Source: Rhodocyclaceae bacterium (GTDB lineage: Bacteria; Pseudomonadota; Gammaproteobacteria; Burkholderiales; CAIKXV01). From it: a DNA stretch of 64,000 bases. Made by a program: the position numbers and the translations under genes. Of the stretch, positions 29,225 through 44,721 are shown one piece after another. Where the stretch lies: NCBI GenBank assembly GCA_020248265.1, contig JADCHX010000004.1:28183-92182 (forward strand), in the 5' to 3' direction. Every line of letters begins with the position of its first letter. Position 1 is the stretch's first letter. The notes below the pieces were generated by a model, which worked only from the letters and a program-made list of their open reading frames with translations, did not search any database and had not been told where the DNA came from.

Positions 29225-30273
29225 AGCACGGCGTGGCAGTGATCGTCGGCGCGACCGGCCTGATCGGGCAGCGTCTGGCGCACCACCTGCAGGGTACCGG
29301 TTCGTGGGACCTCATCGGACTTTGCCGCAACGCAGCCCGGCCGAGCCCGATACCCCTGCTGTCGGTGGACCTGGTCGATGCCGCAAGCTGCCGGCAGGCC
29401 TTGGCGGGCCTCGATGAGGTCACGCATGTGTTCTATACGGCACGTTTCGACCATCCCGAAGGCGTCCATGAGTCGGTCGAAACCAACGCGACCATGCTGC
29501 GCAACGTGGTCGATGCAATCGATGACGCCTCGCCCCGCCTCGTCCATGTGCACGCCGTGCACGGAACCAAGTATTACGGCCACAACCTCGGGCCGATTCC
29601 GGTGCCGGCCAGCGAAGACAGCGCCCGGGCCTCGAGGGTCAACTTCTACTTCCCGCAAGAGGACTACCTGCGCGAGCGCAGCAAGGTGCGTCCCTGGACG
29701 TGGAGTACCTCGCGCCCGCACATCTTCTGCGACGACTCACCCGGGACACCCCGAAACCTTCCGCTGCTGATCGCGGTCTACGCATCCGTCCTGCGCGAAG
29801 CCGGGGAGCCCCTGTACTTTCCCGGCACCGAGGCCAGTTACCGCGCGCGTACGCAGTTCACCGATCTTTCGATGCTGTCCCGGATGATCGAATGGATGGC
29901 GATCACGCCAGCCTGCGCGAACCAGGCGTTCAATGTCGTGAATGGCGACTGCCCGCGCTGGTGCGACCTGTGGCCGGTGTTTGCCGCCTGCTTCGACATG
30001 CAGCCCGGGCCGGTCCGTCCCGCCCGGCTGCGCGACATGATGGCGCCTCGGGCTGCGCAATGGGACGCCATCGTCACTCGCCATGCCCTCGAGCCCTCGA
30101 GCCTTGGCGATGCGGTGTTGTGGGAGTACGGCGATTATGTGTTCTGGCCGGAGTGGGACATCGTTTCAGACATGAAAAAAGCCCGCCAGCACGGCTTCAC
30201 GGAGCAACTCGACAGTGCCCGGCAGCTCGTCGCGCTGTTCGACCGGATGCGTGCGCAGCGGATCATTCCGTAG
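29221..30273 (+). CDS. NAD(P)-dependent extended/atypical SDR (epimerase/dehydratase or enone-reductase-like)
   Basis: VAVIVGATGLIGQRLA Rossmann motif; 350 aa. Confidence 0.75.
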   Translation: MKHGVAVIVGATGLIGQRLAHHLQGTGSWDLIGLCRNAARPSPIPLLSVDLVDAASCRQALAGLDEVTHVFYTARFDHPEGVHESVETNATMLRNVVDAIDDASPRLVHVHAVHGTKYYGHNLGPIPVPASEDSARASRVNFYFPQEDYLRERSKVRPWTWSTSRPHIFCDDSPGTPRNLPLLIAVYASVLREAGEPLYFPGTEASYRARTQFTDLSMLSRMIEWMAITPACANQAFNVVNGDCPRWCDLWPVFAACFDMQPGPVRPARLRDMMAPRAAQWDAIVTRHALEPSSLGDAVLWEYGDYVFWPEWDIVSDMKKARQHGFTEQLDSARQLVALFDRMRAQRIIP

Positions 30274-30286
30274 GAGGAGACTTCGA

Positions 30287-31249
30287 ATGAAGAGCATCTG
30301 CCGCGCATTGATCATCGCATCGCTGTCGGTTGCCGCGACTGCCCATGCACAGACCTATCCGGACAAGCCCATTCGCTGGATCGTGCCGTGGCCACCAGGT
30401 GGCGGTGCCGATGTGCTGTCGCGCATGCTGAGCGGGCGCCTGGCCGAGCTGATGGGACAGCCGGTGATCATCGACAACCGCGGTGGCGCGGCGGGCAACA
30501 TCGGCGCGGAGGTCGCCGCACGCTCGACCCCCGACGGCTACACCATTGCCTTCGCCTACTCCGGCACGCACTCGATCAATCCACACATCTATTCGAAGAT
30601 GCCGTTCCGCGACAGCGATTTTGCGCCGGTGATCTGGTTGTCGATGGTGCCCCAGGTACTGGTGGTCAATCCGGCCGTCCCGGCCAAGACGGTGAAGGAA
30701 CTGATCACGCTTGCCCGCGCGCGCCCCGGTGAGCTGACCTTCGGTTCCAGCGGCAACGGCGCCATCAACCACCTGACCGGTGAGCTGTTCAACATGCGCG
30801 CTGGCACGAAGATCCTGCATGTTCCCTACAAAGGGGGTGGCCCGGCCTCGATCGCGCTGATCTCGGGCGAGATCAGCATGATCTTCGGTGAGCCGGCGAC
30901 CATCGTGCAACAGGTCAGGTCGGGCAAGCTGCGCGCGATCGCAGTGACCAGCGCGGCGCGCGCCAAGGCCATGCCCGAGTTGCCGACGCTGGCCGAGTCC
31001 GGTATTGCAGATTACGAGGTCACTTCCTGGAACGGCGTGCTGGCTCCGGCGGCGACCCCGCGTGAAATCATCAACCGGCTGAATACCGAATTCAACCGGA
31101 TGATCGCGGCACCGAGCATGCAGGCAAGGATGCTCGAATTCGGATTCGAGCCTACTGGCGGAACGCCGGAGCGGTTCGGGAGCCTGATCCGCGATGAGCT
31201 TGCCAAATGGGCGCCGGTCGTCAAGGCGGCCAGCATCAAGATCGATTGA
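30287..31249 (+). CDS. Bug/TctC-family substrate-binding protein
   Basis: AGGAGGAG RBS, signal peptide, PIRWIVPWPPGGGADV, HVPYKGGGPASIALISGEISM. Confidence 0.9.
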   Translation: MKSICRALIIASLSVAATAHAQTYPDKPIRWIVPWPPGGGADVLSRMLSGRLAELMGQPVIIDNRGGAAGNIGAEVAARSTPDGYTIAFAYSGTHSINPHIYSKMPFRDSDFAPVIWLSMVPQVLVVNPAVPAKTVKELITLARARPGELTFGSSGNGAINHLTGELFNMRAGTKILHVPYKGGGPASIALISGEISMIFGEPATIVQQVRSGKLRAIAVTSAARAKAMPELPTLAESGIADYEVTSWNGVLAPAATPREIINRLNTEFNRMIAAPSMQARMLEFGFEPTGGTPERFGSLIRDELAKWAPVVKAASIKID

Positions 31250-33371: not shown

Positions 33372-33509
33372 CGACCCGGCCTCGCCAAACGGCAAGCCCG
33401 CAGCCCATGGGGGTGGGGGTCAGGTCTTGAATTTTGCAGAATACGAAACGGGATTGCTCTCGGCATTCGAGCACGCTGCACTAAAGCCACCTTCGATTCA
33501 TGCCCATCG

Positions 33510-33815
33510 ATGATCCACACCCGTAACGGCAGCGAAGTCCTCGACGCCCTGCGCCCGGTCGCTTCGCGCGGCACCGGCGTATAGCACTGGGGCGCGTCCT
33601 GCTTCGGCCCGCGCTGCAGCAGCGAGGGGCTCGCGCCGGGGCTCGACCCGAAGGCGGGCAATGGCTGCTACCTGTTCGTTGCCAACGGCAGTCTGCTCCT
33701 CGGCGGGCAGTCGCTGCCGGAGTGGTCGATGGTGTTCGTCGACCCCGGCGAGGCGGGGTCGACGAACACCGCCGGGCCACTCGGAGCCGAGGTGCTGGTG
33801 ATGCAGTTCCTGAGG
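33510..33815 (+). pseudogene. Degraded cupin (pirin-like C-terminal) gene fragment
   Basis: One frame reads GNGCYLFVANGSLLLGGQSLPEWSMVFVDPGE..GAEVLVMQF. It is interrupted upstream by an in-frame TAG at 33582-33584. There is no start and no natural stop. Confidence 0.3.
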
Positions 33816-33846
33816 CCAGCGGTGACCCTGGGCGTCCGGACCAGCT

Positions 33847-36800
33847 CTATGGCGCTTGTACCTCGCTGCTGCGCAGGCACGCGACGAGCTTGTCCACTTC
33901 TCCTTCGGCGTCGCGCCACCAGTCGGTCGACCACACCCGCGCGATCTTCCAGCCGAGGTTCTCCAGCACGAACTGACGCAACCGGTCGCGATCGCGTGCC
34001 GTCGCCCCGGAGTGGTACGTCCGGCCGTCGCACTCGATGCCGAGCAGGTAGCGCCCTGGTGCGTTCGGGTCGACCACCGCCAGGTCGATGCGGTAGCCCG
34101 AGCAGCCTACCTGCGCATGCACATCCCAGCCGCGTTCGCGCAGCGCCTGCATCACCGCCTGCTCGAACGGGCTCTCCGGTTCGCGTCCGGTCGGCGTGGA
34201 CTGCGCGATGAGTGCGCGCGGACCCTTGATCGCGAAGTCGAGGTAGTGCTTGAGGTCGCGCACGCCCGCGGCGCGTACCTTCGAGGTGTCGATCTGCCCG
34301 GGGTCCAGCGAACTGAAGATACGCACGGCTTCGCGCGCGCGGGTGATCGCCACGTTCAGGCGTCGATGACCGCCTTCGCCGTTGAGCGGGCCGAAGTTCA
34401 TCGTCATGCGCCCCGCGGCGTCCAGGCCGAAGGTGGTCGAGAAGCAGATCACGTCGCGCTCGTCGCCCTGCACGTTCTCGAGGTTCTTGATGAACAGCGG
34501 CTCGTTGCTGGCAGCCGAGATCGCGCGGTCGAGTTCGGCGTTCGTGCTGCGCCGCTGGTCGAGCAGCGTCTCGATCAGCGCCTGCTGCGGCTGGTTGAAG
34601 GTGACCACGCCGATCGAGCGGGGCTTGCGGTCGATCGGCGTGCCGTCGGCTGCAGCCGGTGCGTCGAGGTAGTGCCGCTCGATCGCCGCGACGACCGCCT
34701 CGGCCTCGATGCGGTTGGTGCGCGAGCCACCGCGGTCGTACACGCCTTCGACCCGCTCGTAGCGTACTGCGGTGTCGTTGGTGACCGGTGACGGGAAAGT
34801 GATCAGGCTCGACTCGTAGTACGTCACGTTGCTGAACGCGATCAGGCTCTCGTGCCGGCTGCGGTAGTGCCATTGCAGGCTGCTGCGGTTCATGCCGGCG
34901 CCAAGGCACTCGTCGAGGATGCTCTCCAGGTCTTCGATCTGTTCCTCGTCGGTCGTCGCGCCGTCGTTGTCGGTGGACTTGTTGAAGAAGTTGGTCGGCG
35001 GCAGCTGCTTCGGATCGCCGACCACCACCAGTTGCCGGCCGCGCGCGATGGTGCCCACGGCGTCCCAGACGGTGATCTGCGAGGCCTCGTCGAACACCAC
35101 CAGGTCGAACGGTGCATAGCCGGCATCGAGGTACTGCGCGACCGACAGTGGCGACATCAGCAGGCAGGGCTTGAGCCGCGGCAGCAACGTCGGCAGCGCC
35201 TGCACCAGCTGGCGGATCGGCAGGTGCCGGCGCTGCTTCTGCAGCTCGCGGCGCAGCCGGCCGAGCTCGGCGTCCGCGCCCGGCAGCGACAGGCCGGACC
35301 AAGGCACGCCGGCGGCGAGCTTCGCGGCGATGTAGGCCTGGGTGAGCGCCTGGAAGCGCGCGTCGGCATCGCGGAACTCGAGGATGCAGCGCGTATGATC
35401 GGCGCTCGAGAAGCCACGCAGCAACGGTTCGCCGTCGATGGTCTTCTTCACCCACCAGTGGCGATAGCTGTATTCGAAGTGGCTGGCGATCGCGGCGAGC
35501 GGCACGGTGCGGCTGGATCCGGCATTCTCCAGCGTGGCCACGATGCCTTGCAGCCCGTGCGCGATCGCCTGTTCGCGCACCTTGCGCCACAGGCACCACG
35601 GCTGCAGCCGGCGGTGTGCAGCGGCCCATCCGGCGAGGGTACTGCGAATGCGTTCGAGTGCGCCACCGGCGGCGGTTGCGCCCTGTACCGGCGCAGGTGC
35701 GGACGCAGTTACAGACGCAGCTGCCGGCGCCGTCACGTGTTCGAGCGCGGTCTTCGCCAGCGCTTCGACCGCCTGCAGCGCGGTGTTCAGCGCGCGCCAG
35801 GCATCGCGCTGCTCGACCAGCGCCCGGCCCACCGGGCCGTCGGGCCGCAGCAGCGCGCGGTCCTCGGCTACCAGCGGTTGCAGCGTGGCGCGCAACGCGT
35901 GCGTCCGCGCCGGATCGCTGCCCGCGACCCGGGTGACGCTGTCGGCGAACTGCTTCGCCCATCGCTCATGGCCGGCCACAGCGGCCCAGTCGGTGGCGAT
36001 GCCGTCGAACTGCTCCTGCAGCAGTGCCTGGGCATCGTCCTGCATCGAGCGCAGCAGCTGGTCTTCTTCGTTCACCGCGGCCAGCGGTTCGAACAGCATG
36101 GGGATGGCGTCGGCGGCCGGCGGTGCGCCGTCGTCGCGAAAGGCAGCCAGCCGCTTGCGCATCGAGCGTTTGTCCAGTGCCGACTTCGGCCACCAGGTTG
36201 CGCTCGCCTGCGACCACTCGGCCTGCAGCTCGATGGCGTTCAGTTTCGCCAGCAGCGGTGTCCAGCCAGGGCCGATGGCCTGCCAGTGAGCGTTGCGCGC
36301 CCTGCCGCACCTGGACAGCACCTGGATGCGGGCGCGCGCACGCGCATCGTGGGCCGCACGGGCGAGGCCGGCCGGCACCGTCGGGGCCGCGAGCAGCAGG
36401 TCGGCGAGCTGGTCGAGGCAGCGCCAGCCGTCCATCGACAGCCCGCTGCACGGAAGTTTCAGGTGGGCACCGACGGCCTGTGCGGCCTGCTGGAACGCCG
36501 CGATCGCGGTATCGAGCGTGCGCGCCGCGGCAAGCAGGTCGTCCTGCCAGCTCGGACTCCACTCGGTGTGGCCGATCGCGGCGAGCGGATGGCCCTCGAT
36601 GCGGCCGACCGGGTCGGCGAGCGAGGCCATCCGCCGCGACAGTTCGCGCAGCGCGTCGAGCGCTTCCCGGTCGTGCACCTGCGGGTCTGGCCAGGGCATC
36701 GGCGAGGCAGGCGCAGCGTCGTCGCGCCCTTGTGCCGCGATGCAGGTGCCGATCGCGTCGAATACAGTGAGCCCGTTCGGATACGCCCGGTGCAGCGCAT

Positions 36801-39357
36801 CGACCAGCCCGTTGAGCGACTGCCGCAGCGCGCCGAGGCGATCGGCCTCGCGCTGCCATTCACCGGATGGCTTCCGTGCGGCGATATCGAGTGTCGCCCC
36901 GAGCGCGCGTACGATCTCGGCCTTCTTCGCCTTCGCCGAATGCAGCTCGAGGCAGAACGGGCCGAGGCCGATCTGCTCCAGCCGCCGGTGCACCACTTCG
37001 AGCGCGGCCAGCTTCTCGGAGACGAACAGAACGGTGCGGCCCTTCGCCAGCAGGTGCGCGATCAGGTTGGTGATCGTCTGGCTCTTGCCGGTGCCGGGCG
37101 GGCCCTCGAGCACCAGGTCGCGGCCGGCGTCGATCGCGCAGATGGCTTTCAGCTGCGACGAGTCGGCGATCAGTGGCGCCAGGATGTCTTGCGGCGCATA
37201 GGTGTCGTCGAGGCGGTCCAGGCCGGGCAGTGGCTCGTCACGCACGAACGCTTCGCCCGGGCGGTCGATCAGGTGCTGCACCACGCGGTTGGCCTTGAGC
37301 TGCGCGGTGCGGTCCTGCAGGTCCTTCCACATCAGGTATTTGGTGAACGAGAACAGGCCGAGGTGCGCTTCATCGAGCACCTCCCATTGCTTGAGGTCGG
37401 TGACCGCGAGGCGGAACGCCTGCAGCAGGCGGGCGACATCGATGCCCTTGTCGTCGGTGGGCAGGGCTTCCGCGGCAGCGCCGGCACTGGCGGTGCTGCC
37501 GAGGCTGCCCAGGTCGCCGATGCGGATCTCTTCGCGCAGCCGCATCATCTGCAGCAGCGTCGGGTTGACGATCGCGTCGTCGTCGTGGCGCACCAGCCGG
37601 AAGCCGGAGCGTACCGACTGGCGCAGCAGCGTCACCGGCACGAGCAGGATCGGCGCCAGGTGCGAGGCCTCGGCCCGTTCGGTGTCGGTCCAGCGCAGCA
37701 GGCCGAACGCGATGAACAGCGTGTTCGCACCGCCTTCCTCCAGCCCCTCGCGTGCCTTGCGGAACAGGTTGGTCAGCGTCGCGCTCAGGTCCTCGGGCGA
37801 GAGCCTGACCAGCAGTTCGCGGTCGGCGAGCGCGTTGCGTGCCATCTCGTCCCACGGCGTCTGGCCGGTGCGGTTGCGATGGACCTCGGACGAGCGGGGG
37901 TCCTTCCCGTCCATGATCTCTGGTTCGGCGCGCAGGCGGAACTCGCCGCCGTCGGACAGCGCATCTTCCAGCGCGGCGAGGTCGGGCGCGGCGATACGCA
38001 GCGTCGACTTCGATGGCTTGAAGTTGAGCAGCCGGTTGCGCAGGGTCAGGTCGAGCAGCTTCGACTTCCACTTCGACAGCCGGCCCTCGGGCGTGTCGTC
38101 TGGGCCGGCGTCGACGATCCTGAGCAGCGCCGGGTCGAGCGGCGGCAGGTCGGGCATGGGCTCGATGGGGGCGGCCGCGGCCGCCGGAGTGCCGCCCGCC
38201 GCGCCTTTGTCTGTGTCTGCGCCGGGGCCGTCCACCGCCATCGACCGCGACGGCAGCGGCCGGATGTGCACCGCGCGCGCGCGCCGGATGTCGATCGCAT
38301 AGAGGAACTGTCCGCCATCGGCGAGGTAGCCCTGCCCCTGCTCGAGCGCGATGCGCAGCGACGGCCGCTGCGTCGGATGCTGCGCGACGCCGGTGGTCTC
38401 GAACACCAGCAGCTCGCCGCTCGCCACCCGCTTGCGCACCGACTGCACGTCATCGACCAGCGGATCCGGGAATGCGGCGTCGTGCAGCCAGGCGCCGATC
38501 CATGCATGGCCTTCCTTCAGCAGCACCACGGCCCCGAGACCGGCCTGTTCCAGGCAGGAGGCGAACAGCATCGCGAGATCCAGGCAACTGCCCACCCGGT
38601 GCTCGAGGATGCGGCCCGGCGTGCGTACCTTCTGCCCGTCGGTGCCGAACGAGGCCGGCGGCTCGACATACTGCAGCCCCTCGTTGCACACGGCGGTGTA
38701 GAGCGCCGACACCTGCTGCCACACTGCTTCGCGGCGCTTCGACTGGTAGCCGTCCATCGACAGCCCTGGCTGCGCCACCTTCAGCAACTGCGACGCCTTG
38801 CCCACCAGCGAATCGACTGCCGGGTCGTTCGGCATGGAGAACGCCGCCAGCAGTTCCGGCAGTGACCGTGTGCCGGCCCACTGGTCGTAGGCGAGCACTT
38901 CCACTGCCTGGGTGGCGCGGGCGAGTTCACGGTCTCCGGTGCGCACGGCAACCGTGATGCTGGCCTGCACCGCCTCGGCCAGGTTGGCCAGGAAGGCGTG
39001 GTCCGGCGGCAGGTCGAGCGGTGCGACATGCCGGCGCTCGCCCGGCTGCAGGCGGTCGAAGCGCAGCATGACCCCGCGCGCGAACGGTGGGTTGCAGGCG
39101 ACCTCGACCTGCAGGTCTTCCAGCGGCGCGTCGCCGGCATGGACCAGCACGAGGGATCGCACCACCGGCACCCCACACTGGATCGATGCGTAGCCGAGGA
39201 TGGCATCGGCGTCGAGGGTGATCTCGAGGAGGGGCGCGGCGGCGGCAGTGGGCGCAGGGGTGTTCAGGGTCGGTCCGTTTCGGTGGCGCTGGGGTGCGGT
39301 GGGACTTCTGGACTTCTGGACTTCGGGACGGCGGGACGGCGGATCGGGAGGGACCAT
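33847..39357 (-). CDS. Giant (1,836 aa) multidomain protein: N-terminal transglutaminase-like module + Upf1-like SF1 helicase + C-terminal Vsr/DUF559-type PD-(D/E)xK nuclease
   Basis: Transglutaminase-like HRVGSCLDLAMLFASCLEQAGL..GHAWIGAWL (~38.55 kb). Walker A LEGPPGTGKSQT (~37.09 kb). VVFDEASQI and VVVGDPKQLPP (~35.05-35.10 kb). YRSRHESL, VTFNQPQQ, VQGDERD, VAITRAR. Nuclease RIDLAVVDP..GIECDGRTYHSGATARDRDRLRQFVLENLGWKIARVWSTDWW (~33.9-34.1 kb). Confidence 0.9.
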   Translation of the reverse strand: MVPPDPPSRRPEVQKSRSPTAPQRHRNGPTLNTPAPTAAAAPLLEITLDADAILGYASIQCGVPVVRSLVLVHAGDAPLEDLQVEVACNPPFARGVMLRFDRLQPGERRHVAPLDLPPDHAFLANLAEAVQASITVAVRTGDRELARATQAVEVLAYDQWAGTRSLPELLAAFSMPNDPAVDSLVGKASQLLKVAQPGLSMDGYQSKRREAVWQQVSALYTAVCNEGLQYVEPPASFGTDGQKVRTPGRILEHRVGSCLDLAMLFASCLEQAGLGAVVLLKEGHAWIGAWLHDAAFPDPLVDDVQSVRKRVASGELLVFETTGVAQHPTQRPSLRIALEQGQGYLADGGQFLYAIDIRRARAVHIRPLPSRSMAVDGPGADTDKGAAGGTPAAAAAPIEPMPDLPPLDPALLRIVDAGPDDTPEGRLSKWKSKLLDLTLRNRLLNFKPSKSTLRIAAPDLAALEDALSDGGEFRLRAEPEIMDGKDPRSSEVHRNRTGQTPWDEMARNALADRELLVRLSPEDLSATLTNLFRKAREGLEEGGANTLFIAFGLLRWTDTERAEASHLAPILLVPVTLLRQSVRSGFRLVRHDDDAIVNPTLLQMMRLREEIRIGDLGSLGSTASAGAAAEALPTDDKGIDVARLLQAFRLAVTDLKQWEVLDEAHLGLFSFTKYLMWKDLQDRTAQLKANRVVQHLIDRPGEAFVRDEPLPGLDRLDDTYAPQDILAPLIADSSQLKAICAIDAGRDLVLEGPPGTGKSQTITNLIAHLLAKGRTVLFVSEKLAALEVVHRRLEQIGLGPFCLELHSAKAKKAEIVRALGATLDIAARKPSGEWQREADRLGALRQSLNGLVDALHRAYPNGLTVFDAIGTCIAAQGRDDAAPASPMPWPDPQVHDREALDALRELSRRMASLADPVGRIEGHPLAAIGHTEWSPSWQDDLLAAARTLDTAIAAFQQAAQAVGAHLKLPCSGLSMDGWRCLDQLADLLLAAPTVPAGLARAAHDARARARIQVLSRCGRARNAHWQAIGPGWTPLLAKLNAIELQAEWSQASATWWPKSALDKRSMRKRLAAFRDDGAPPAADAIPMLFEPLAAVNEEDQLLRSMQDDAQALLQEQFDGIATDWAAVAGHERWAKQFADSVTRVAGSDPARTHALRATLQPLVAEDRALLRPDGPVGRALVEQRDAWRALNTALQAVEALAKTALEHVTAPAAASVTASAPAPVQGATAAGGALERIRSTLAGWAAAHRRLQPWCLWRKVREQAIAHGLQGIVATLENAGSSRTVPLAAIASHFEYSYRHWWVKKTIDGEPLLRGFSSADHTRCILEFRDADARFQALTQAYIAAKLAAGVPWSGLSLPGADAELGRLRRELQKQRRHLPIRQLVQALPTLLPRLKPCLLMSPLSVAQYLDAGYAPFDLVVFDEASQITVWDAVGTIARGRQLVVVGDPKQLPPTNFFNKSTDNDGATTDEEQIEDLESILDECLGAGMNRSSLQWHYRSRHESLIAFSNVTYYESSLITFPSPVTNDTAVRYERVEGVYDRGGSRTNRIEAEAVVAAIERHYLDAPAAADGTPIDRKPRSIGVVTFNQPQQALIETLLDQRRSTNAELDRAISAASNEPLFIKNLENVQGDERDVICFSTTFGLDAAGRMTMNFGPLNGEGGHRRLNVAITRAREAVRIFSSLDPGQIDTSKVRAAGVRDLKHYLDFAIKGPRALIAQSTPTGREPESPFEQAVMQALRERGWDVHAQVGCSGYRIDLAVVDPNAPGRYLLGIECDGRTYHSGATARDRDRLRQFVLENLGWKIARVWSTDWWRDAEGEVDKLVACLRSSEVQAP
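39302..39341. repeat. Five tandem 8-nt units (GGACTTCT, GGACTTCT, GGACTTCG, GGACGGCG, GGACGGCG) inside codons 6-19 of the giant helicase-nuclease gene
   Basis: Read directly from the sequence. The unit length is not a multiple of three. Confidence 0.8.
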
Positions 39358-39496
39358 GCAATGTAGCCGTTTCGACGGGGTCTGCTCAATGCCGGGGGGC
39401 CGTCGTCATGCATGCGGTACATTCGCGAGCGGGGCCTCCCGCGCCCCGCGAGGGATACGCTGCCGGCAACGTTCCGGCTACACGGAGGAGGTCATC

Positions 39497-40480
39497 ATGT
39501 CAGTCGGCCAACATGTCGGGATGGTTTCCGGTTTCCTGGGCCTTGCACTGTCCGGCATCGCGCTCCAGGGCGCGGCCCAGCAGGATTTCCCGGTGAAGCC
39601 GATCCGGCTCATCGTGCCCTCTGGCGCGGGGGGTGGTACCGACGGCACCACGCGCCTGGTGGCGCCGAAACTCGATGAATTCTTCGGCCAGCGCGTGCTG
39701 GTCGAGAACCGGCCGGGTGCCGGCTCCATCGTCGGCACCGAGTTCGTGGCCCGTTCCGCGCCCGATGGTTACACGCTGCTCACCGCGATCAGCAGCATGA
39801 CCATCCAGCCGTCGATCACGAAGAACCTGCCGTTCGATCCGGTGCGCGACTTCGCGCCGGTGAGCCAGTACGTGTCGCTGCCGAACATCCTGCTCGGCAA
39901 CCTGTCCCTGCCGCCGCGCAACGTCAAGGAACTGATCGCCTTCGCCCGCGCACGGCCCGGCACGCTCGAATTCGCCTCGGCGGGCACTGGCTCCAGCCTG
40001 CACATGAGCATGGAACTGTTCCTCAGCATGGCCGGGCTGAAGATGGTGCACGTGCCATACAAGAGCGCGACCACCGGCATCGGCGACGTGGTCGCCGGCC
40101 ACCTGCCGCTGATGGTGAACAACATGATCGTCGGCACGTCGTACGTGAAGTCCGGTCGCCTGCGCGCCTACGGCGTGACCAGCGCCACGCGGTCGAAGAG
40201 TGCCCCCGAGATCCCGACCATCGCCGAGCAGGGCGTGCCGGGCTACGAGGCGGTGCAGTGGTACGGCATGATCGCCCCCGCCGGCACGCCGAAGGAAGTG
40301 ATCGCGCGCCTGCACAAGGGCGTGGTGTTCGCGCTGCAGGATCCGGGCACGCGCGAGCGGCTGGTCTCCAGCGGCGCCGAACCGGTGGCCAGCACGCCGG
40401 AGGAGTTCGCGGCGCTGATGCGCGCCGAGGTGGTGAAGTGGGCGAAGGTGGTGAAGGCCGCGGGGATACGGCAGGAGTAG
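39497..40480 (+). CDS. Bug/TctC-family substrate-binding protein
   Basis: GGAGGAGG RBS, signal peptide, PIRLIVPSGAGGGTDG, HVPYKSATTGIGDVVAGHLPL. Confidence 0.9.
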   Translation: MSVGQHVGMVSGFLGLALSGIALQGAAQQDFPVKPIRLIVPSGAGGGTDGTTRLVAPKLDEFFGQRVLVENRPGAGSIVGTEFVARSAPDGYTLLTAISSMTIQPSITKNLPFDPVRDFAPVSQYVSLPNILLGNLSLPPRNVKELIAFARARPGTLEFASAGTGSSLHMSMELFLSMAGLKMVHVPYKSATTGIGDVVAGHLPLMVNNMIVGTSYVKSGRLRAYGVTSATRSKSAPEIPTIAEQGVPGYEAVQWYGMIAPAGTPKEVIARLHKGVVFALQDPGTRERLVSSGAEPVASTPEEFAALMRAEVVKWAKVVKAAGIRQE

Positions 40481-40724
40481 GCGGCGGGCGTTCCGCGCAC
40501 GCTGTGGCTGCGATGTCCACGTTGGCAAGGTTCACAGCCCACGGGCCCCTGTTCTTCATCATTCGTGAGGATATGCTCGGAGAATCACGCACCTAACCGC
40601 GCTCCTGCCCAGTGAGCGTGCAGCCGTCCATGGGGACGGTCGGCACGCCGCAGACAGGAGCCACCATGACGACGCCGGCCTCGAGAACCCGTCGGGCCTG
40701 CAACCGCGCGCGCATGACCCTGGC

Positions 40725-41549
40725 TTGAGGGGTCCGGTGGGTGGCGTCGGCATCGAGTCCAACGACGTTGTCTCCATGACCGACACGATGGTGCGCGACA
40801 TGATGGCGATGCCCGAGATCGTCGGGCGATCGGTCGCACCGCGGGTGATCAGCGATGCCGAGTACTTCGTGAACGATTCGGCGCAGCCGATCAACCGGAA
40901 CCTCATCACCGACCGCCTGCGCCTGAACCTGAATCGCGCAGCCCGGAACCGGCTGGTGTTCGTGGGCCGCAACCACTCGCAGGCGGTGGCCCTTGAGCGG
41001 GACCTCAAGCGGTCGGGTGCCGTCGATGTCGGCACCACGGGCCTCACCAAGGCGCAGGCAGGAGCCGACTTTCGCCTGGGCGGACGCATCTCTTCCCTCG
41101 ATGCTCGCAACCCCAGGACTGGCGTGATGCAGCGCTACAAACAGATCGTGTTCGAACTGTTCGACCTTGAGACGGGCGTGATCGTGTGGACGAACATGTC
41201 AGCGGTCGGCGCAACAGCCCGCTTCGGGAGGCGGACGAATGGACCCTCGTGTCAGCGTTCGAGGCTGGCCTGCGCGACGCCGGGTGCTGGGCTGGTTCCT
41301 GTCGCGCGACGTGACAGATGCCGCAGGCCAGGCCCGTCCTTCCGCCCGTCGCCGTCCGGCTTCGAACGTATCGAGTCGGCAAAGGGGCCGGAGTCCGCCG
41401 GCCGCAGCGCCACGGCCACCGGACACGCCCGCCTCGCCCTCACCATGCCAATGCACTGTCGGGCCGGGCAAGGCCTGCGCCTTTCTCCGCGCTGCGTTCG
41501 GTGTTCGGGATCGCAGGTCCAACCCCGGCCTCCGGTGCGAGGTCCCTGA
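40725..41549 (+). CDS. LpoB-like (penicillin-binding-protein activator, COG3417-like) domain ORF lacking a lipoprotein signal and a natural stop; probable pseudogene
   Basis: SNDVVSMTDTMVRDMM..NLITDRLRLNLNRAARNRLVFVGR..GADFRLGGRISSLDA..YKQIVFELFDLETGVIVW resembles the LpoB core. No signal peptide or lipobox in any upstream frame. The frame runs on ~110 codons into the antisense of the LuxR gene. Confidence 0.4.
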   Translation: MRGPVGGVGIESNDVVSMTDTMVRDMMAMPEIVGRSVAPRVISDAEYFVNDSAQPINRNLITDRLRLNLNRAARNRLVFVGRNHSQAVALERDLKRSGAVDVGTTGLTKAQAGADFRLGGRISSLDARNPRTGVMQRYKQIVFELFDLETGVIVWTNMSAVGATARFGRRTNGPSCQRSRLACATPGAGLVPVARRDRCRRPGPSFRPSPSGFERIESAKGPESAGRSATATGHARLALTMPMHCRAGQGLRLSPRCVRCSGSQVQPRPPVRGP

Positions 41550-42165
41550 TGCGCGCCTGTAGTGCGGACATCGGCGGCAGTGTCGATGCCTTCCGTACGA
41601 CGTGCGTGATGGTCCGCACGCCCACCTTCCCCCGGATCGCTCCGATCTGCGTGCGGATGGTGTGCAGGCTCACGGAGCGCTGATCTGCGATGTCCTGGGG
41701 AAGAAGGCCATCGCACAGGGCCACCAGCACCTCCCGTTCGCTCGGCGTGAGCCCGAAGGCCTTTGCGAACAGGGTGAGTACGATGGGTTCGAGTGGCTCG
41801 AAGTGGCCGGACAGCAGCACGACCATCGGCTCTGCGCCTTCGAACTCGCCCACGAGCGGGATGATTGCGTACAGTCGGCCGTCCGCCGCGTCTCCGAGTT
41901 CCACCAGCGATCGCATGCCGCGGACGGCTCCGGCGAGGGCCTGTTCGAAGCACGCCTGCTGCGCACTCGAGGCAGCCCTGACCTGTCCGCTGCGCAGATC
42001 CAGGCCGCCGCCTGCCTCCAGCGAGGCATGCCCAGCGAGGTTTGCGTATAGCAGCGTGGCGCGCGCATCGAGCAGCAGCACGCGAAGCGAGATTGCATTC
42101 AGGACCTCGCTGAGCCGCTGGCCCAGGTCGACGGAAGATGGCACGGACGGAATAGGACTTGGCAT
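41440..42165 (-). CDS. LuxR-family transcriptional regulator (N-terminal sensor-like domain + C-terminal HTH)
   Basis: SEREVLVALCDGLLPQDIADQRSVSLHTIRTQIGAIRGKVGV. Confidence 0.85.
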   Translation of the reverse strand: MPSPIPSVPSSVDLGQRLSEVLNAISLRVLLLDARATLLYANLAGHASLEAGGGLDLRSGQVRAASSAQQACFEQALAGAVRGMRSLVELGDAADGRLYAIIPLVGEFEGAEPMVVLLSGHFEPLEPIVLTLFAKAFGLTPSEREVLVALCDGLLPQDIADQRSVSLHTIRTQIGAIRGKVGVRTITHVVRKASTLPPMSALQARIRDLAPEAGVGPAIPNTERSAEKGAGLARPDSALAW

Positions 42166-42395
42166 GGGGGCTCGATGGCATCTCGCCGAGGGAGTCGGCG
42201 GCTCCTGCTTGATCGAGGCGGACTTTGCGGGATGCTGTCAGCGATGCCAACCTACGTTTCCTAATGGACGCGATTACCGCGAAGGCATCCACGATTACTA
42301 ATGATCGTCATTAGGAGTGGGCAGGAGCGTGACCTTGGCAGCGCGCGCGCAATCCGATAAAGAAGAGGCTTCGATGACAAGAGGAGTGCTCGCGA

Positions 42396-44648
42396 TTGGA
42401 CGGTCTTCCGCTGCGCTGGGTCGATGAATTCAGGGGGCAGGTGCTGGATGCACGCTGGGTCGGTGGTCACACGAACGATAGCCGTGAAGCCAGCGTGGAA
42501 ATCTCGAACGGCTTCCGGGTCACGCTGGCCCAAGGCACGCAGTACGCATCGGCCGGCATCGCGCTGCGCACGCCGGTCGTCGGCGACTTCGACGTGCGGG
42601 TCGCGTTCCATGTCTCCGCTCCCGCGAAGGGAACGACCTTCGAGGTGGCGGCGGTCACGGTGGATCCCCCCCGGGAGTCGGCGCTGGACAACACGAACGA
42701 AGCGTTGACCGCCTACGGCCGTAGCCGCATCTACGACGTACACGGAGCGCCGCCCTATGTGAGCAGCGAATTCGACGAGAACGACGGCTGGCGCATCGGC
42801 TGGAACCGTGCGGCGGGACAGACCCGGCCCGGTCCGACGGGTGTGCTCATCGCGGACAATCACTTCAACCGTTACGGTCACACCTCGGGCCCGAAGCCCA
42901 CCGGTGAGACAAGCGGCTGGCTCCGGCTCGTGCGCACCGGCGACGACTGGACGAGCTATCGCAGTGGCGAGGGTGCGGCCTGGGTGCCGACCGGCATGGT
43001 TCGCTGGATGAACATGCCGCTGGCGGTGTTCATCCGGCTGGCCGCGAAGCACTGGCCCAAGGTCGAGGGACGCGCACCAGCCAACGCGGTCACCTTCACG
43101 CGGGTCGAGTTGCGTTCGGCCGTACCACCCGACGTCGCGTACGCGACCGCGTCCCATGAACTGTCCCGGGCGCCGGTCTCGCTTCTGGCGACGCAGCCGT
43201 CCGCGATGGTCGACCGCGTGCGCGCCGTGCGAGCGTGCCAACGCTGTGGACCGTTCTGGAAGGACACGGTCTATGGGCCCATCATCCAGGTGCAGCCCGC
43301 CAAGCCTGGAAAGGCCACGATCAAGGCATTCGCCCAGCCCGAGCCGGCGACCCTGTACGGTTGCCGCAAGGCGCCGGTGATGCTGGTAGGGATCAACCCG
43401 AACCTGCCGTCGCACTTTCCGGGGCGCTCCGGCTTCGTCACGCCCTTCTTCGATTCCGACGCGGCATACGCTGAGCATTACCGCAAGGCACCGGGGCCGC
43501 GGCTCGCGATCGAGCCCGAAGCGATGGCGTCGCTGCTTGAGAATGATGGAAGGATCGTCGCCAGCAAGGACGGCCGGCTCGTGGTGGACCGTGAAAGTGC
43601 GTCCGCCTCGGCTCGCATTCCCGGGCAACGGAAGGCGAGGCTGGTGGTCGATTACGACGGCGAGGACCCGCCCGTCCAGCATGACATCACCTGGCAGCGC
43701 GGCCAGTCCTTCGCCATGTTTCGTCCCTCGTTCAAGGCTGGCGAGGTGGTTGCAGGCATCCTGACCGAAAGGGTGGTTGGGCACGACGTGCCCGTCGTGA
43801 CGGATTCCAGGCGCGGTGCCTACTACGAACATGCCGAACAGCTGGTCAAGCTGTTCGCCGAGCGGCGTGGCGGGCCAGGGCTGGAGCTGGGCGAAGACAT
43901 GTCCTTGCACGACGCCGTCGCCTGCGCGAGCCCGAACTGGAACAACGACGAGTTTTCGACCAGCGCGGTGGAACAGGCCTGCGTGCGCGAGCAGCGCTGG
44001 ATGCACCGCGACCTGGCGGAGTGTGCGCCGGCGGTGGTGGTCCTGGCCGGTCGCGTTGCCCTGGGCCTGTTCGCGCAGCCGTCGGAAGGGCGCTTGTCCC
44101 ATCCACTGGATACCCTTCCGCAACGCGCTGGCGGTGTCGATGGCCTGTTCGACGTGGTCGCACGGAAGGGGCTGTGGTGGAACTACCGCGTCGGCGGCGA
44201 CGAGCGGACCGTCCGCCTCGTGGTGGGTCCGCATTTCTCGTATCCGGACAACATGCGCCCGCAGTGCTACTTCCCGGAGGAGGACTGGCGGCAGTTCGAG
44301 GCCCAGCATCCAGCGCTGGTGGCAGACCTCACGCGCCGGCGCATGAAGGACGGACCCGTGGTGCGAAAGGCCCACGGTACCGCCGACACGCAGGTGTTCA
44401 TCGACAAGGAAGATCCACTGTGGGCTGAGACCGAACGCATCGATCGGGACGCCGTGGCGACGATGCGTTCGTGGTGGATCCATCCCCTGGACCGGATCGC
44501 CGAAGCCGTCGTGGCAGGGCTGGACGAACGCGGCGTCGCCCGGATCGGTAGTGGACACCTCGGGCGTGAGAAAGGCAGCTGCGACTACTGCGACAACGCA
44601 GCCTGGAAGATCGGACAGGGTTGCGCATATGTCAGAAATGCTCCATGA
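42396..44648 (+). CDS. 750-aa fusion protein: N-terminal lectin/LamG-like beta-sandwich (DUF1349-like) + Fe-S-type uracil-DNA-glycosylase-superfamily domain with a large insertion
   Basis: TTG start 9 nt after GAGGAG. N-terminal part GWLRLVRTGDDWTSYRSGEGAAW. Then C281-x2-C284 (CQRC), VMLVGINPNLPSHF (aa 329-341), C510..C529 (VACASPNW..EQACVREQ), APAVVVLAGRVALGLF and VVGPHFSYP. C-terminal CDYC..GC. Confidence 0.6.
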   Translation: MDGLPLRWVDEFRGQVLDARWVGGHTNDSREASVEISNGFRVTLAQGTQYASAGIALRTPVVGDFDVRVAFHVSAPAKGTTFEVAAVTVDPPRESALDNTNEALTAYGRSRIYDVHGAPPYVSSEFDENDGWRIGWNRAAGQTRPGPTGVLIADNHFNRYGHTSGPKPTGETSGWLRLVRTGDDWTSYRSGEGAAWVPTGMVRWMNMPLAVFIRLAAKHWPKVEGRAPANAVTFTRVELRSAVPPDVAYATASHELSRAPVSLLATQPSAMVDRVRAVRACQRCGPFWKDTVYGPIIQVQPAKPGKATIKAFAQPEPATLYGCRKAPVMLVGINPNLPSHFPGRSGFVTPFFDSDAAYAEHYRKAPGPRLAIEPEAMASLLENDGRIVASKDGRLVVDRESASASARIPGQRKARLVVDYDGEDPPVQHDITWQRGQSFAMFRPSFKAGEVVAGILTERVVGHDVPVVTDSRRGAYYEHAEQLVKLFAERRGGPGLELGEDMSLHDAVACASPNWNNDEFSTSAVEQACVREQRWMHRDLAECAPAVVVLAGRVALGLFAQPSEGRLSHPLDTLPQRAGGVDGLFDVVARKGLWWNYRVGGDERTVRLVVGPHFSYPDNMRPQCYFPEEDWRQFEAQHPALVADLTRRRMKDGPVVRKAHGTADTQVFIDKEDPLWAETERIDRDAVATMRSWWIHPLDRIAEAVVAGLDERGVARIGSGHLGREKGSCDYCDNAAWKIGQGCAYVRNAP

Positions 44649-44721
44649 TTTCGATCTTTATGGTCGGGCAATCGGCTCTCTGGCCGGCCTCTGTACTCAG
44701 GAATCGCGCTCCGGGGATCGA

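What the first reader, a model, noticed from the sequence alone, without database searches (positions are those of the whole stretch)
33847..39357. 1,836-aa protein combining a transglutaminase-like module, an SF1 helicase and a Vsr-type nuclease: candidate stand-alone defence or DNA-surveillance gene
One ORF carries three modules.

- **Transglutaminase-like Cys/His module:** GSCLDLAMLF..GHAWIG.
- **Complete Upf1-like SF1B helicase motif set:** GPPGTGKS, DEASQ, GDPKQLPP, YRSRH, QGDERD, VAITRAR.
- **Vsr/DUF559-type PD-(D/E)xK endonuclease tail:** GIECDGRTYH..RDRDR..W.

From memory, this is the DUF4011/AAA_11/AAA_12/DUF3320/REase architecture. From memory, PADLOC lists such helicase + Vsr-nuclease single-gene candidates as 'Hhe'. 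I am not aware of a mechanism having been worked out.

Here the gene is monocistronic. It sits between a degraded cupin gene and a Bug gene, and it has a frame-breaking repeat tract in its first 20 codons. This is my top candidate for an accessory immune or genome-policing function in the window.
Basis: partly seen in the sequence, partly recalled or inferred. Interest (0 to 1): 0.7.

Follow-up and report, generated by a model that had tools for sequence, protein, structure and literature searches.

The report
ProA-type helicase–nuclease defence gene, short form
This intact 1,836-residue gene belongs to the already-catalogued ProA family, which joins a transglutaminase-like domain to a helicase and a nuclease and is named anti-phage; it is a correct but not new find, lacks the family's usual DNA-binding tail, and is present in every sampled member of its lake-bacterium population.

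Summary
The ORF at 33847–39357 (−) is real, intact and under purifying selection (dN/dS about 0.18).
- an N-terminal β-sandwich plus a transglutaminase-like core, with invariant Cys258 and His284 and a conserved acidic Asp302/Asp303;
- DUF4011 plus an Upf1-like SF1B helicase, split by a roughly 660-residue insertion;
- a Vsr-type MTES_1575 nuclease.

It is not Hhe. NCBIfam places it in "anti-phage protein ProA" (2081 bits, cut-off 1500) and PADLOC in PDC-S37. It falls below the Hhe cut-off (857 vs 2000), and a bona fide Hhe lacks the N-terminal module altogether. The architecture was described computationally in 2013.

This copy is a recurrent short form without the C-terminal DUF3320/wHTH tail. 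It has no conserved partner gene. It is not accessory here: all 10 contigs found through a neighbouring gene carry it at the same position.

Strain-level variation is concentrated in three places: a polymorphic 8-bp repeat in the 5′ leader (2 or 3 units, with the ORF open either way), an in-frame Gly/Ala repeat, and nonsynonymous patches in the helicase insertion.

The mechanism is unknown, and I could not find the paper behind the ProA name. Verdict: a new member of a known kind, of moderate-to-low interest.

The parts
33847..39357 (-). Whole ProA-family ORF, 1,836 aa, ATG start as called. The true start is uncertain within the first ~43 codons.
   Evidence: NCBIfam ProA 2081 bits against cut-off 1500. 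PADLOC PDC-S37 1233 bits. dN/dS 0.14–0.20.
39229..39357 (-). Poorly conserved Pro-rich 5′ leader (codons 1–43). It holds two adjacent 8-bp tandem repeats at 39302–39329 and 39324–39342; on the coding strand these read (CCGTCCCG)×~2.4 then (GAAGTCCA)×~3.5.
   Evidence: TRF. There are 3 units in the window, L110, L112, L113 and L118, and 2 units in L111, L114 and L115. All three frames have an upstream start codon. Leader dN/dS is 0.5–0.7.
38893..39228 (-). N-terminal β-sandwich (Ig-like) domain, residues 44–155.
   Evidence: AlphaFold2 model with pLDDT 91.7 and strands through fragment residues 5–115. Foldseek matches the β-sandwich domains of TG2, factor XIII, protein 4.2 and CARDB.
38248..38892 (-). 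Transglutaminase-like (papain-like) core, residues 156–370. The putative triad is Cys258 (38584–38586), His284 (38506–38508) and Asp302/Asp303 (38449–38454).
   Evidence: Cys and His are invariant in 61 of 61 homologues. Positions 302 and 303 are acidic in 57 and 59 of 61. dN/dS is 0.04–0.13.
38068..38247 (-). Low-complexity Gly/Ala/Pro linker, residues 371–430, with an in-frame repeat polymorphism after residue 384 (+GAAG or +GAAGGAAG in other strains).
   Evidence: pLDDT below 50 in the model. Indels seen in L112, L113 and L115.
37543..38061 (-). DUF4011 domain, residues 433–605.
   Evidence: Pfam E = 2.3e-48. Shared with Hhe.
36868..37167 (-). Helicase RecA1, N-terminal part, with Walker A GPPGTGKS (37081–37104).
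   Evidence: AAA_11, AAA_30 and AAA_19 hits. Motif position. dN/dS 0.03.
35158..36867 (-). Large insertion between Walker A and Walker B, residues ~831–1400, with no Pfam domain. It is the fastest-evolving folded part and has strain-level nonsynonymous patches at 935–950 and 1205–1228.
   Evidence: dN/dS 0.27–0.47. Window vs L111: 16 nonsynonymous and 12 synonymous differences here, against 3 and 34 in the rest of the gene; Fisher p = 2e-5.
34288..35157 (-). Helicase RecA1 C-terminal part plus RecA2, with motifs DEASQ, GDPKQLPP, YRSRH, QGDERD and VAITRAR.
   Evidence: AAA_11 and AAA_12. PDB sequence hits to IGHMBP2, Sen1 and Upf1. TIGR00376 hit. Motif positions.
33880..34167 (-). Vsr-type PD-(D/E)xK nuclease (REase_MTES_1575), residues 1731–1826, with RIDLAV, GIECDGRTYH and RDRDR. 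The protein ends 10 residues later, with no DUF3320/wHTH tail.
   Evidence: Pfam E = 8.4e-39. 42% identity to Hhe over the C-terminal 595 residues. No tail remnant downstream.
39358..39502 (.). 145-bp divergent intergenic region shared with the TctC/Bug gene; presumed promoter region. A conserved TTGAGC–18 nt–TACATT element lies just upstream of, and overlapping, the called ATG.
   Evidence: Sequence and conservation across 8 relatives. The consensus scan found no promoter at its threshold, so this is inference only.

Best explanation
The gene encodes a short-form member of the ProA family (PADLOC PDC-S37). It is a stand-alone, single-polypeptide helicase–nuclease that most likely polices foreign DNA from phages and possibly plasmids.

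Proposed working, with each step marked:
1. It is expressed on its own from the divergent intergenic region (inferred).
2. The Upf1-like SF1B motor binds and translocates along nucleic acid using ATP. The motifs are shown to be intact. The substrate and the 5′→3′ polarity are inferred from the helicase class.
3. The fused Vsr-type PD-(D/E)xK nuclease cuts the DNA being tracked. Domain and motifs are shown. The activity is inferred from the sister family Hhe, where a nuclease Glu→Ala mutant loses protection.
4. Target or trigger recognition probably lies in the ~570-residue insertion inside the helicase, the fastest-diversifying part (inferred from the evolutionary pattern). This short form lacks the wHTH/DUF3320 tail that was proposed to read DNA in long forms.
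5. The N-terminal β-sandwich plus transglutaminase-like Cys-His-Asp module is catalytically competent and is the most constrained accessory part (shown). It most likely acts as a peptidase, amidase or isopeptidase. It could license the enzyme, for example by cleaving at the flexible Gly/Ala linker, or it could attack a DNA-associated foreign protein (speculative).
For: - Family assignment: NCBIfam 'anti-phage protein ProA' is an equivalog model, scoring 2081 bits against a cut-off of 1500 and covering residues 56–1831. PADLOC gives PDC-S37 at 1233 bits.
- The thresholds discriminate in controls: long-form P0018 scores 2304 bits over the whole model, short-form P0225 scores 1941, and a real Hhe scores only 1131 on ProA but 2735 on Hhe.
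- Domains and motifs are intact.
- The helicase class is Upf1-like: the closest solved sequences are IGHMBP2, Sen1 and Upf1.
- The transglutaminase fold and triad are supported.
- Selection is purifying overall and strongest on the transglutaminase core and RecA1.
- Within-population nonsynonymous changes concentrate in the helicase insertion: 16 nonsynonymous to 12 synonymous there, against 3 to 34 elsewhere (p = 2e-5). The patches are mosaic among strains, a pattern typical of conflict genes.
- No partner gene is conserved across 80 loci.
- Full-length homologues occur on 24 plasmid records, including a 54-kb P. aeruginosa plasmid.
- The gene is absent from the equivalent position in a more distant relative that keeps the same flanking operon (L082).
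[quoted passage not shown] Hhe protects against λ, T3, T7 and ΦV-1, and a nuclease E1731A mutant abolishes protection (bioRxiv 10.1101/2022.06.16.496414).
Against: - The experimental basis of the name 'ProA' could not be located. Ten literature searches found no paper, so the defence function rests on a database label and on analogy with Hhe.
- Locally the gene behaves like a fixed chromosomal gene. It is present at the same position in 10 of 10 contigs found through a neighbouring gene. It is syntenic in relatives at 84–99% identity and across about 12 Achromobacter loci.
- There are no adjacent defence genes, no tRNA in the window, and only a slight GC rise.
- A DUF4011 gene is a core gene in P. 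aeruginosa (PMC10250203), although I did not test whether that gene is ProA-type.
- The substrate (DNA or RNA), the polarity, the trigger and the role of the transglutaminase module are all untested.
- Loss of the wHTH tail could mean altered or reduced function.
Confidence: 0.6

Rival explanations
1. It is a housekeeping genome-maintenance enzyme rather than an immune gene. The helicase–nuclease would resolve or repair endogenous DNA problems such as DNA–protein crosslinks, stalled forks or R-loops. The transglutaminase-like peptidase would remove the protein adduct, and the Vsr-like nuclease would incise the DNA.
For: - The gene is fixed at one chromosomal position in the whole sampled population.
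- It is syntenic in related lineages and across Achromobacter species.
- There are no mobile-element or defence-island marks nearby.
- Purifying selection is strong.
- Structural neighbours of the core include the DNA-damage sensor Rad4/XPC and PNGase.
- Vsr itself is a repair nuclease (established knowledge).
- A DUF4011 gene is core in P. aeruginosa.
Against: - Curated resources classify the family as anti-phage or as a defence candidate.
- The sister family Hhe has a phage phenotype.
- Homologues occur on plasmids, and the gene is absent from the same site in L082.
- Excess nonsynonymous, mosaic variation in the helicase insertion is unusual for a repair enzyme.
- Domain shuffling in the family, with RNase_T or HEPN additions and loss or gain of the wHTH tail, is typical of conflict systems.
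Confidence: 0.2
2. It is a member of the Hhe family.
For: It shares the body DUF4011 + SF1B helicase + MTES_1575 nuclease. Identity is 42% over the C-terminal 595 residues and 30% over residues 512–1063. The PADLOC Hhe HMM gives a 610-bit partial match.
Against: - NCBIfam Hhe scores 857 bits against a cut-off of 2000, whereas ProA scores 2081 against 1500.
- A genuine Hhe starts at DUF4011, with its residue 1 aligned to window residue 404, and so has no β-sandwich or transglutaminase module.
- The reciprocal control behaves as expected.
Confidence: 0.03
3. The 8-bp repeat in the 5′ leader makes the gene phase-variable. Slipped-strand changes in copy number would switch expression, or switch the N-terminal isoform, between subpopulations.
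For: - The repeat is real.
- Both the 2-unit and 3-unit alleles are common among near-identical contigs, 3 and 5 of 8.
- A neighbouring 8-bp repeat also varies, as seen in L066.
- The unit length is not a multiple of 3, so each step changes which start codon is in frame, ATG versus TTG.
Against: - Every copy number from 1 to 6 leaves an open frame with a canonical start, so there is no OFF state at ORF level.
- The leader evolves almost neutrally (dN/dS 0.5–0.7).
- The leader is deleted altogether in L002, L003 and L005, which is consistent with an unconstrained or untranslated region.
- Only two or three units are seen, which is short for an efficient contingency locus.
- No promoter or ribosome-binding site could be assigned.
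Confidence: 0.1
4. It is a decaying or inactivated copy, because the C-terminal DNA-binding tail has been lost.
For: The last ~197 positions of the ProA model (the DUF3320/wHTH tail) are missing. Genes on both flanks have suffered deletions or insertions.
Against: - The ORF is intact in all population contigs.
- dN/dS is about 0.18 and all catalytic motifs are kept.
- Tail-less forms that end just after the nuclease recur in distant lineages and still pass the ProA cut-off (P0225 and P0228).
- No tail remnant lies downstream.
Confidence: 0.03

Closest known systems
ProA (NCBIfam NF058533 'anti-phage protein ProA'), equal to PADLOC candidate PDC-S37
   Same: The whole architecture from residue 56 to 1831 matches: β-sandwich plus transglutaminase-like module, DUF4011, a split Upf1-like SF1B helicase, and an MTES_1575 Vsr-type nuclease. 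The score is above the curated cut-off. It is a single gene with no conserved partner.
   Different: It lacks the C-terminal DUF3320/wHTH tail (model positions ~1707–1903) that most members carry. It belongs to a recurrent short sub-architecture. I could not find the primary paper, so I do not know what was shown for ProA.
Hhe (Gao et al. 2020 single-gene system; NCBIfam NF042953)
   Same: It shares DUF4011, an SF1B helicase with a large insertion, and an MTES_1575/Vsr nuclease, with 30–42% identity over residues 404–1836. Hhe is also a single gene. In Hhe a nuclease Glu is required for defence.
   Different: Hhe has no N-terminal β-sandwich or transglutaminase module. The window protein fails the Hhe cut-off, 857 against 2000.
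[quoted passage not shown] 2013, PMC3710099)
   Same: The combination of transglutaminase-like peptidase, SF-I helicase and Vsr-family REase is the same. That paper predicted these proteins to be modification-independent, restriction-like defence proteins.
   Different: The window protein has no N-terminal HEPN RNase and no C-terminal wHTH pair. The 2013 proposal that the wHTH domains recognise invading DNA therefore cannot apply to it.
Upf1-like SF1B helicases (Upf1, IGHMBP2, Sen1)
   Same: The motif set and the AAA_11/AAA_12 core match, and these are the closest solved structures by sequence.
   Different: Similarity is limited to the motor core (E about 1e-6). The window protein has a ~660-residue insertion between Walker A and Walker B and carries fused peptidase-like and nuclease domains.
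Transglutaminase-fold superfamily (animal TG2/TG3/factor XIII, PNGase, bacterial transglutaminase-like Cys proteases, Rad4/XPC)
   Same: A β-sandwich is followed by a papain-like core, as in animal transglutaminases. Cys sits at a helix N-terminus, His on the next strand, and an acidic residue 18–19 residues later.
   Different: Sequence similarity is below Pfam thresholds and structural scores are modest (TM 0.2–0.39). The substrate and chemistry (protease, amidase or cross-linker) are unknown.

Membership tests
ProA (NCBIfam NF058533) / PADLOC PDC-S37 | Whole-protein HMM score at or above the curated equivalog cut-off of 1500 bits | tested here: met
   The window protein scores 2081 bits over residues 56–1831. 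Controls: long form 2304, short form 1941, Hhe 1131, which is below the cut-off. PADLOC PDC-S37 scores 1233 bits.
ProA (NCBIfam NF058533) / PADLOC PDC-S37 | N-terminal β-sandwich plus transglutaminase-like module with a Cys/His active site | tested here: met
   The module matches the ProA model from position 2. The AlphaFold model has pLDDT 91.7. Cys258 and His284 are invariant in 61 of 61 homologues. The module is N-terminal in 1,730–2,340-aa proteins across 4,037 representative clusters.
ProA (NCBIfam NF058533) / PADLOC PDC-S37 | DUF4011, split SF1B helicase and MTES_1575 nuclease in one polypeptide | tested here: met
   All Pfam hits are above their cut-offs.
ProA (NCBIfam NF058533) / PADLOC PDC-S37 | C-terminal DUF3320 (2×wHTH) tail, model positions ~1707–1903 | tested here: not met
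   There is no DUF3320 hit. The model match stops at position 1706 of 1903. tblastn of five tails finds no remnant downstream. Other tail-less members still pass the cut-off, so the tail is common but not required by the curated model.
ProA (NCBIfam NF058533) / PADLOC PDC-S37 | Protection against phage when expressed | not testable with these tools
   This needs an experiment. The primary report for ProA was not found in the paper library.
Hhe (NCBIfam NF042953) | Whole-protein HMM score at or above the curated cut-off of 2000 bits | tested here: not met
   The window protein scores 857 bits in three partial stretches. A genuine Klebsiella Hhe scores 2735.
Hhe (NCBIfam NF042953) | Architecture starting with DUF4011, with no N-terminal enzymatic module | tested here: not met
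   Hhe residue 1 aligns to window residue 404, and the Hhe Pfam profile begins with DUF4011 at residue 30. The window protein has ~400 extra N-terminal residues.
Transglutaminase-like superfamily (Pfam Transglut_core / DUF553) | Pfam score at or above the gathering threshold | tested here: not met
   Transglut_core scores 15.7–16.2 bits against a cut-off of 23, and DUF553 scores 13.1–13.4 against 20.5. However, 24 and 30 of 61 homologues give the same weak hits, and no competing family recurs.
Transglutaminase-like superfamily (Pfam Transglut_core / DUF553) | Papain-like transglutaminase fold with a Cys (helix N-terminus) – His (β-strand) – Asp triad | tested here: met
   Models have pLDDT 91.7 and 90.5. 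Foldseek top hits are TG2/TG3 (E = 1e-5, probability 0.99) for the two-domain model, and PNGase, 3isr, 3kd4, TglA and Rad4 (E = 2e-3, TM 0.30–0.39) for the core alone. The triad is conserved. The scores are modest, so this shows the fold, not the enzymology.
Upf1-like SF1B helicases | Motifs I, II, III, V and VI, plus AAA_11/AAA_12 core hits | tested here: met
   TIGR00376 (IGHMBP2 family) gives a partial hit.
Vsr-type PD-(D/E)xK nucleases (REase_MTES_1575) | Pfam PF18741 above its cut-off, with the acidic and His motif residues conserved | tested here: met
   132 bits against a cut-off of 38.2. The RIDLAV…GIECDGRTYH…RDRDR block aligns closely, with a few conservative substitutions, with the Hhe nuclease block.
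Accessory or defence-island gene | Presence/absence polymorphism among close relatives; neighbouring defence or mobility genes | tested here: not met
   The gene is present in 10 of 10 contigs ascertained through the neighbouring FAD gene. Flanking genes are metabolic or transport genes. The adjacent 7.3-kb insert has no PADLOC hits, and the window has no tRNA. At longer range the position is not conserved and plasmid copies exist.

The most novel reading that the evidence does not exclude
The most novel reading not excluded is that ProA is a three-enzyme machine aimed at protein-capped or protein-bound foreign DNA. The transglutaminase-like Cys peptidase would remove or modify a DNA-attached invader protein, such as a terminal protein, a relaxase, or an end-protecting or anti-restriction protein. 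Alternatively it would self-cleave at the flexible Gly/Ala linker to license the enzyme. The helicase–nuclease would then destroy the exposed DNA. In this reading the fast-diversifying insertion inside the helicase, not a wHTH tail, is the specificity determinant. The polymorphic 8-bp leader repeat would tune which start codon, and so how much protein, each strain makes.
Probability: 0.1. Interest if true: 0.7.

Novelty: new member of a known kind. Interest (0 to 1): 0.35.

Why it matters
The family is very large. The N-terminal module alone defines about 4,000 clusters at 50% identity. It is widespread in Burkholderiales, rhizobia, Paracoccus, Nitrospira and on plasmids. Even so, I could find no mechanistic study or solved structure for it.

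This window adds three usable facts:
- The transglutaminase-like module has an intact, invariant active site and is the most constrained accessory part, so it is probably enzymatic.
- Natural tail-less forms show that the wHTH/DUF3320 domains are dispensable for whatever keeps the gene under selection.
- Within one natural population, amino-acid variation is concentrated in two patches of the helicase insertion. This points to where specificity or antagonist contact may lie and gives ready-made allele swaps for experiments.

It also shows that a gene listed as 'defence' can be fixed and syntenic, which is a caution against equating defence genes with accessory genes.

Tried and rejected
- Hhe membership was rejected on curated thresholds and on direct comparison with a Klebsiella Hhe.
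- A truncated gene with a DUF3320 remnant downstream was rejected: tblastn of five tails found nothing.
- A conserved partner gene or operon was rejected: the largest neighbour cluster covers 12 of 80 loci and reflects genus-level synteny only.
- A defence-island context was rejected. The 7.3-kb strain-variable insert next door has no PADLOC hits. It encodes an LpoB-like protein, a LuxR/GerE-type regulator, a 750-aa unknown protein, a LysR regulator and an Endonuclease_NS protein, and I found no terminal repeats.
- An ON/OFF phase switch through the 8-bp repeat was rejected at ORF level.
- A sequence-level link of the N-terminal profile to any solved structure was sought, with no hits.
- A promoter and terminator scan found nothing at its thresholds.
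- Literature: ten full-text searches and one targeted look at the PADLOC 'embedded defences' preprint and its supplements found no paper that defines ProA or PDC-S37.
- A metagenome scan with the FAD neighbour gave only distant relatives, 80% identity or less. The exact-identity look-up served the purpose instead.
- The 'cupin' label for the degraded neighbour could not be verified.


Full report
**1. Observation**

The ORF at 33847–39357 on the − strand is exactly as described: 1,836 codons with an ATG start. In DNA of about 70% GC, long ORFs arise by chance, and a 1,337-codon antisense ORF overlaps this one. ORF length is therefore not evidence. The evidence is as follows:
- The − strand has the coding GC pattern, 0.72/0.49/0.88 by codon position.
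- Pfam hits are strong.
- dN/dS is 0.14–0.20 against five relatives.

**2. Domain anatomy**

Pfam gives:
- DUF4011 at residues 433–605 (E = 2e-48);
- AAA_11/AAA_30 at the Walker A region (~733–792) and again at 1414–1455;
- AAA_12 at 1481–1682;
- REase_MTES_1575 at 1731–1826 (E = 8e-39).

Walker A (752–759) and Walker B (1423–1427) are 663 residues apart, so the RecA1 domain carries a very large insertion. The closest solved proteins by sequence are IGHMBP2, Sen1 and Upf1. That confirms an Upf1-like SF1B motor, and it shows that no structure of this family is in the PDB.

Most homologues at 62–66% identity are about 1,980 aa and do carry it. tblastn of five such tails finds no remnant downstream.

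**3. The transglutaminase claim**

Pfam does not call the domain at threshold (Transglut_core 15.7 bits against 23). I built a 61-sequence alignment of N-terminal regions at 33–67% identity. I then predicted the structure of residues 40–400, giving pLDDT 91.7 and pTM 0.88.

The model has two parts:
- a β-sandwich (residues ~44–155);
- an α/β core with Cys258 at the N-terminus of a helix and His284 on the following strand.

Evidence for the fold:
- Foldseek against the PDB puts TG2, TG3 and factor XIII at the top (E = 1e-5, probability 0.99). TM is low (about 0.2) because the domain orientations differ.
- A core-only model (pLDDT 90.5) hits PNGase, two transglutaminase-like 'putative cysteine proteases' (3isr, 3kd4), TglA, Rad4/XPC and menin. 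All are transglutaminase-fold proteins (E = 2e-3, TM 0.30–0.39).
- Thirty of 61 homologues weakly hit DUF553 and 24 hit Transglut_core. No competing family recurs.
- Cys258, Asp260 and His284 are invariant in 61 of 61. Positions 302 and 303 are acidic in 57 and 59 of 61.
- The Cys–His (26) and His–Asp (18–19) spacings are close to those I recall for PNGase. That comparison is from my own knowledge, not from a tool.

I take the fold and a competent triad as shown. The chemistry is not shown.

**4. Which family**

NCBIfam gives 'anti-phage protein ProA' (NF058533, an equivalog model) at 2081 bits against a cut-off of 1500. The match covers residues 56–1831 and model positions 2–1706 of 1903. Hhe scores 857 against a cut-off of 2000. 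PADLOC gives PDC-S37 at 1233 bits, with Hhe only partial at 610 bits.

Controls:

| Protein | ProA score (cut-off 1500) | Hhe score (cut-off 2000) | ProA model positions matched |
|---|---|---|---|
| Long-form relative P0018 | 2304 | 923 | 2–1903 |
| Distant short form P0225 | 1941 | 806 | 1–1711 |
| Annotated Klebsiella plasmid Hhe | 1131 | 2735 | 428–1717 |

Direct BLASTP shows Hhe residue 1 aligned to window residue 404, and the Hhe Pfam profile starts with DUF4011. So ProA equals an Hhe-like body plus an N-terminal β-sandwich and transglutaminase module, usually with a wHTH tail as well. The window protein is ProA, not Hhe.

[quoted passage not shown] There DUF3320 was equated with the wHTH pair. 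The proteins were proposed to be a modification-independent restriction-like defence (PMC3710099).

I could not find a paper that defines ProA or PDC-S37, despite using all ten searches and checking one likely preprint and its supplements. The anti-phage label therefore rests on the database name and on Hhe. Hhe protects against λ, T3, T7 and ΦV-1, and protection is lost in a nuclease E1731A mutant.

**5. Family breadth and sub-architectures**

An exhaustive search with the N-terminal module finds 4,037 representative clusters at E ≤ 1e-3, of which 901 have E ≤ 1e-30. In the listed hits long enough to be full-length (about 1,730–2,340 aa), the module is nearly always at the N-terminus. It starts near residue 190 in two longer proteins, P0274 and P0360.

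- Tail-less forms that end just after the nuclease recur (P0225, P0228).
- One longer form adds an N-terminal RNase_T exonuclease.
- Hosts include Achromobacter, Variovorax, Polaromonas, Paraburkholderia, Massilia, Noviherbaspirillum, Ralstonia and Nitrospira.
- Full-length homologues occur on 24 plasmid records, including rhizobial and Paracoccus plasmids and a 54-kb P. aeruginosa plasmid.
- Across 80 loci no neighbouring gene is conserved beyond genus-level synteny. It is therefore a single-gene system.

**6. Is it accessory here? No**

The window comes from an uncultured freshwater Burkholiales-type lineage represented by lake MAGs; more precisely, the closest records are labelled Burkholderiales or Betaproteobacteria MAGs. 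Relatives at 84–99% protein identity keep the gene next to the same TctC/Bug gene.

To avoid ascertainment through ProA itself, I looked up contigs that encode the identical neighbouring FAD protein. Twenty-three contigs were read and ten places shown. All ten carry ProA immediately after the GFA gene.

At greater distance the site is not conserved. L082 keeps the ADH–Amdase–PRISE–TctC–FAD–GFA block but has a GST-like gene where ProA would be. There is no tRNA in the window, and GC rises only slightly over the gene.

**7. What does vary**

(a) The 5′ leader.
- An 8-bp repeat (GAAGTCCA on the coding strand; 39302–39329) has 3 units in the window, L110, L112, L113 and L118, and 2 units in L111, L114 and L115.
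- A simulation of 1–6 units shows that each frame has an upstream ATG or TTG, so the ORF never closes.
- The leader has dN/dS of 0.5–0.7 and is deleted in L002, L003 and L005.
- No canonical start lies between the repeat and the first conserved residues (~44), so the true start remains uncertain.

(b) An in-frame GAAG or GAAGGAAG insertion after residue 384, in the disordered linker.

(c) Amino-acid changes.
- Window vs L111: the helicase insertion (831–1400) has 16 nonsynonymous and 12 synonymous differences. The rest of the gene has 3 and 34 (Fisher p = 2e-5).
- The changes cluster at residues 935–950 and 1205–1228. Different strains carry different combinations, which suggests recombination.
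- The 1200–1250 patch has 7 nonsynonymous and 2 synonymous differences (dN/dS about 1.5). These are small numbers.

(d) Both flanks.
- A 7,278-bp segment (40487–47764) is present in the window, L110, L112 and L118, and absent in L111, L113, L114 and L115.
- Downstream, a 255-aa gene is reduced to two fragments. A TctC gene and a PRISE-like gene present in L001 are missing.

**8. Mechanism**

Shown:
- intact active-site motifs in all three enzymatic modules;
- strong constraint on the transglutaminase core (dN/dS 0.04–0.13) and RecA1 (0.03);
- relaxed or diversifying evolution in the helicase insertion;
- absence of the wHTH tail;
- stand-alone gene organisation.

Inferred: ATP-driven translocation on foreign DNA with coupled Vsr-type cleavage, by analogy with Hhe. 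Recognition or regulation would work through the insertion domain. The transglutaminase-like module would act as a peptidase or amidase that licenses the enzyme or attacks a DNA-associated invader protein.

The main rival is a genome-maintenance role. It is favoured by fixation and synteny, and by the Rad4/PNGase-like fold neighbours. It is disfavoured by the curated labels, the plasmid copies, the domain shuffling and the pattern of variation.

**9. Verdict**

It is also wrong on DUF3320 and on the expectation that the gene is accessory. This is a new member, in a recurrent short form, of a known and catalogued family whose mechanism I could not find described. Interest is moderate to low.

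Noticed in passing
window 40487-47764: A 7,278-bp segment lies one gene upstream of ProA. It is present in some near-identical population contigs (window, L110, L112, L118) and absent in others (L111/L081, L113, L114, L115, and also L001, L002, L005, L066). It encodes an LpoB-like lipoprotein, a GerE/LuxR-type regulator, a 750-aa protein with only a faint DUF1583 hit, a LysR regulator and an Endonuclease_NS protein. It has no PADLOC hits, no integrase or transposase, and no clear terminal repeats.
   Followed up: partly
window 33372-33846 (fragments at 33510-33641 and 33639-33809, + strand): This is a degraded remnant of a 255-aa gene that is intact in L001 (14317-15084). Residues ~45–193 are deleted. 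A TctC gene and a PRISE-like gene that follow it in L001 are also missing here and in the whole near-identical population.
   Followed up: partly
window ~38200-38210 (after codon 384 of the ProA ORF): An in-frame Gly/Ala repeat polymorphism sits in the disordered linker between the transglutaminase-like module and DUF4011. L113 and L115 have +GAAG and L112 has +GAAGGAAG relative to the window.
   Followed up: partly
window 36508-36555 (codons 935-950) and 35674-35745 (codons 1205-1228): Two patches of clustered nonsynonymous differences among population alleles lie inside the helicase insertion. Strains carry them in mosaic combinations: L112 has only the first, L113 only the second, and L111 and L114 have both. 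This suggests recombination between alleles and possibly diversifying selection.
   Followed up: partly
window 39358-39400, − strand: A sequence resembling a sigma-70 promoter (TTGAGC, 18 nt, TACATT) is conserved among eight relatives, although the surrounding leader is highly variable. It ends only 2 nt before the called ATG. If it is real, that would place the called ATG at or upstream of the transcription start. It falls below the scan tool's threshold.
   Followed up: no
window 30215-31249, 39503-40480, 47872-48906 and elsewhere: The region has many TctC/Bug-family periplasmic binding-protein genes interleaved with small metabolic operons (ADH, arylmalonate decarboxylase-like, PRISE-like SDR, FAD-dependent oxidoreductases, GFA). 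This is typical of Burkholderiales.
   Followed up: no
literature (PMC10250203), not in the window: In Pseudomonas aeruginosa a large DUF4011 gene (PA14_RS11765) is a core gene that marks the right flank of defence hotspot cDHS1. Here too a fixed DUF4011-family gene sits beside strain-variable DNA. I did not test whether the P. aeruginosa gene is ProA-type.
   Followed up: no
L035 and L071 (genome-contig loci): Close ProA homologues of the Burkholderiales type occur on MAG contigs labelled Chitinophaga pinensis and Enterobacteriaceae (62% and 52% identity to the window protein). This could reflect binning contamination or horizontal transfer.
   Followed up: no
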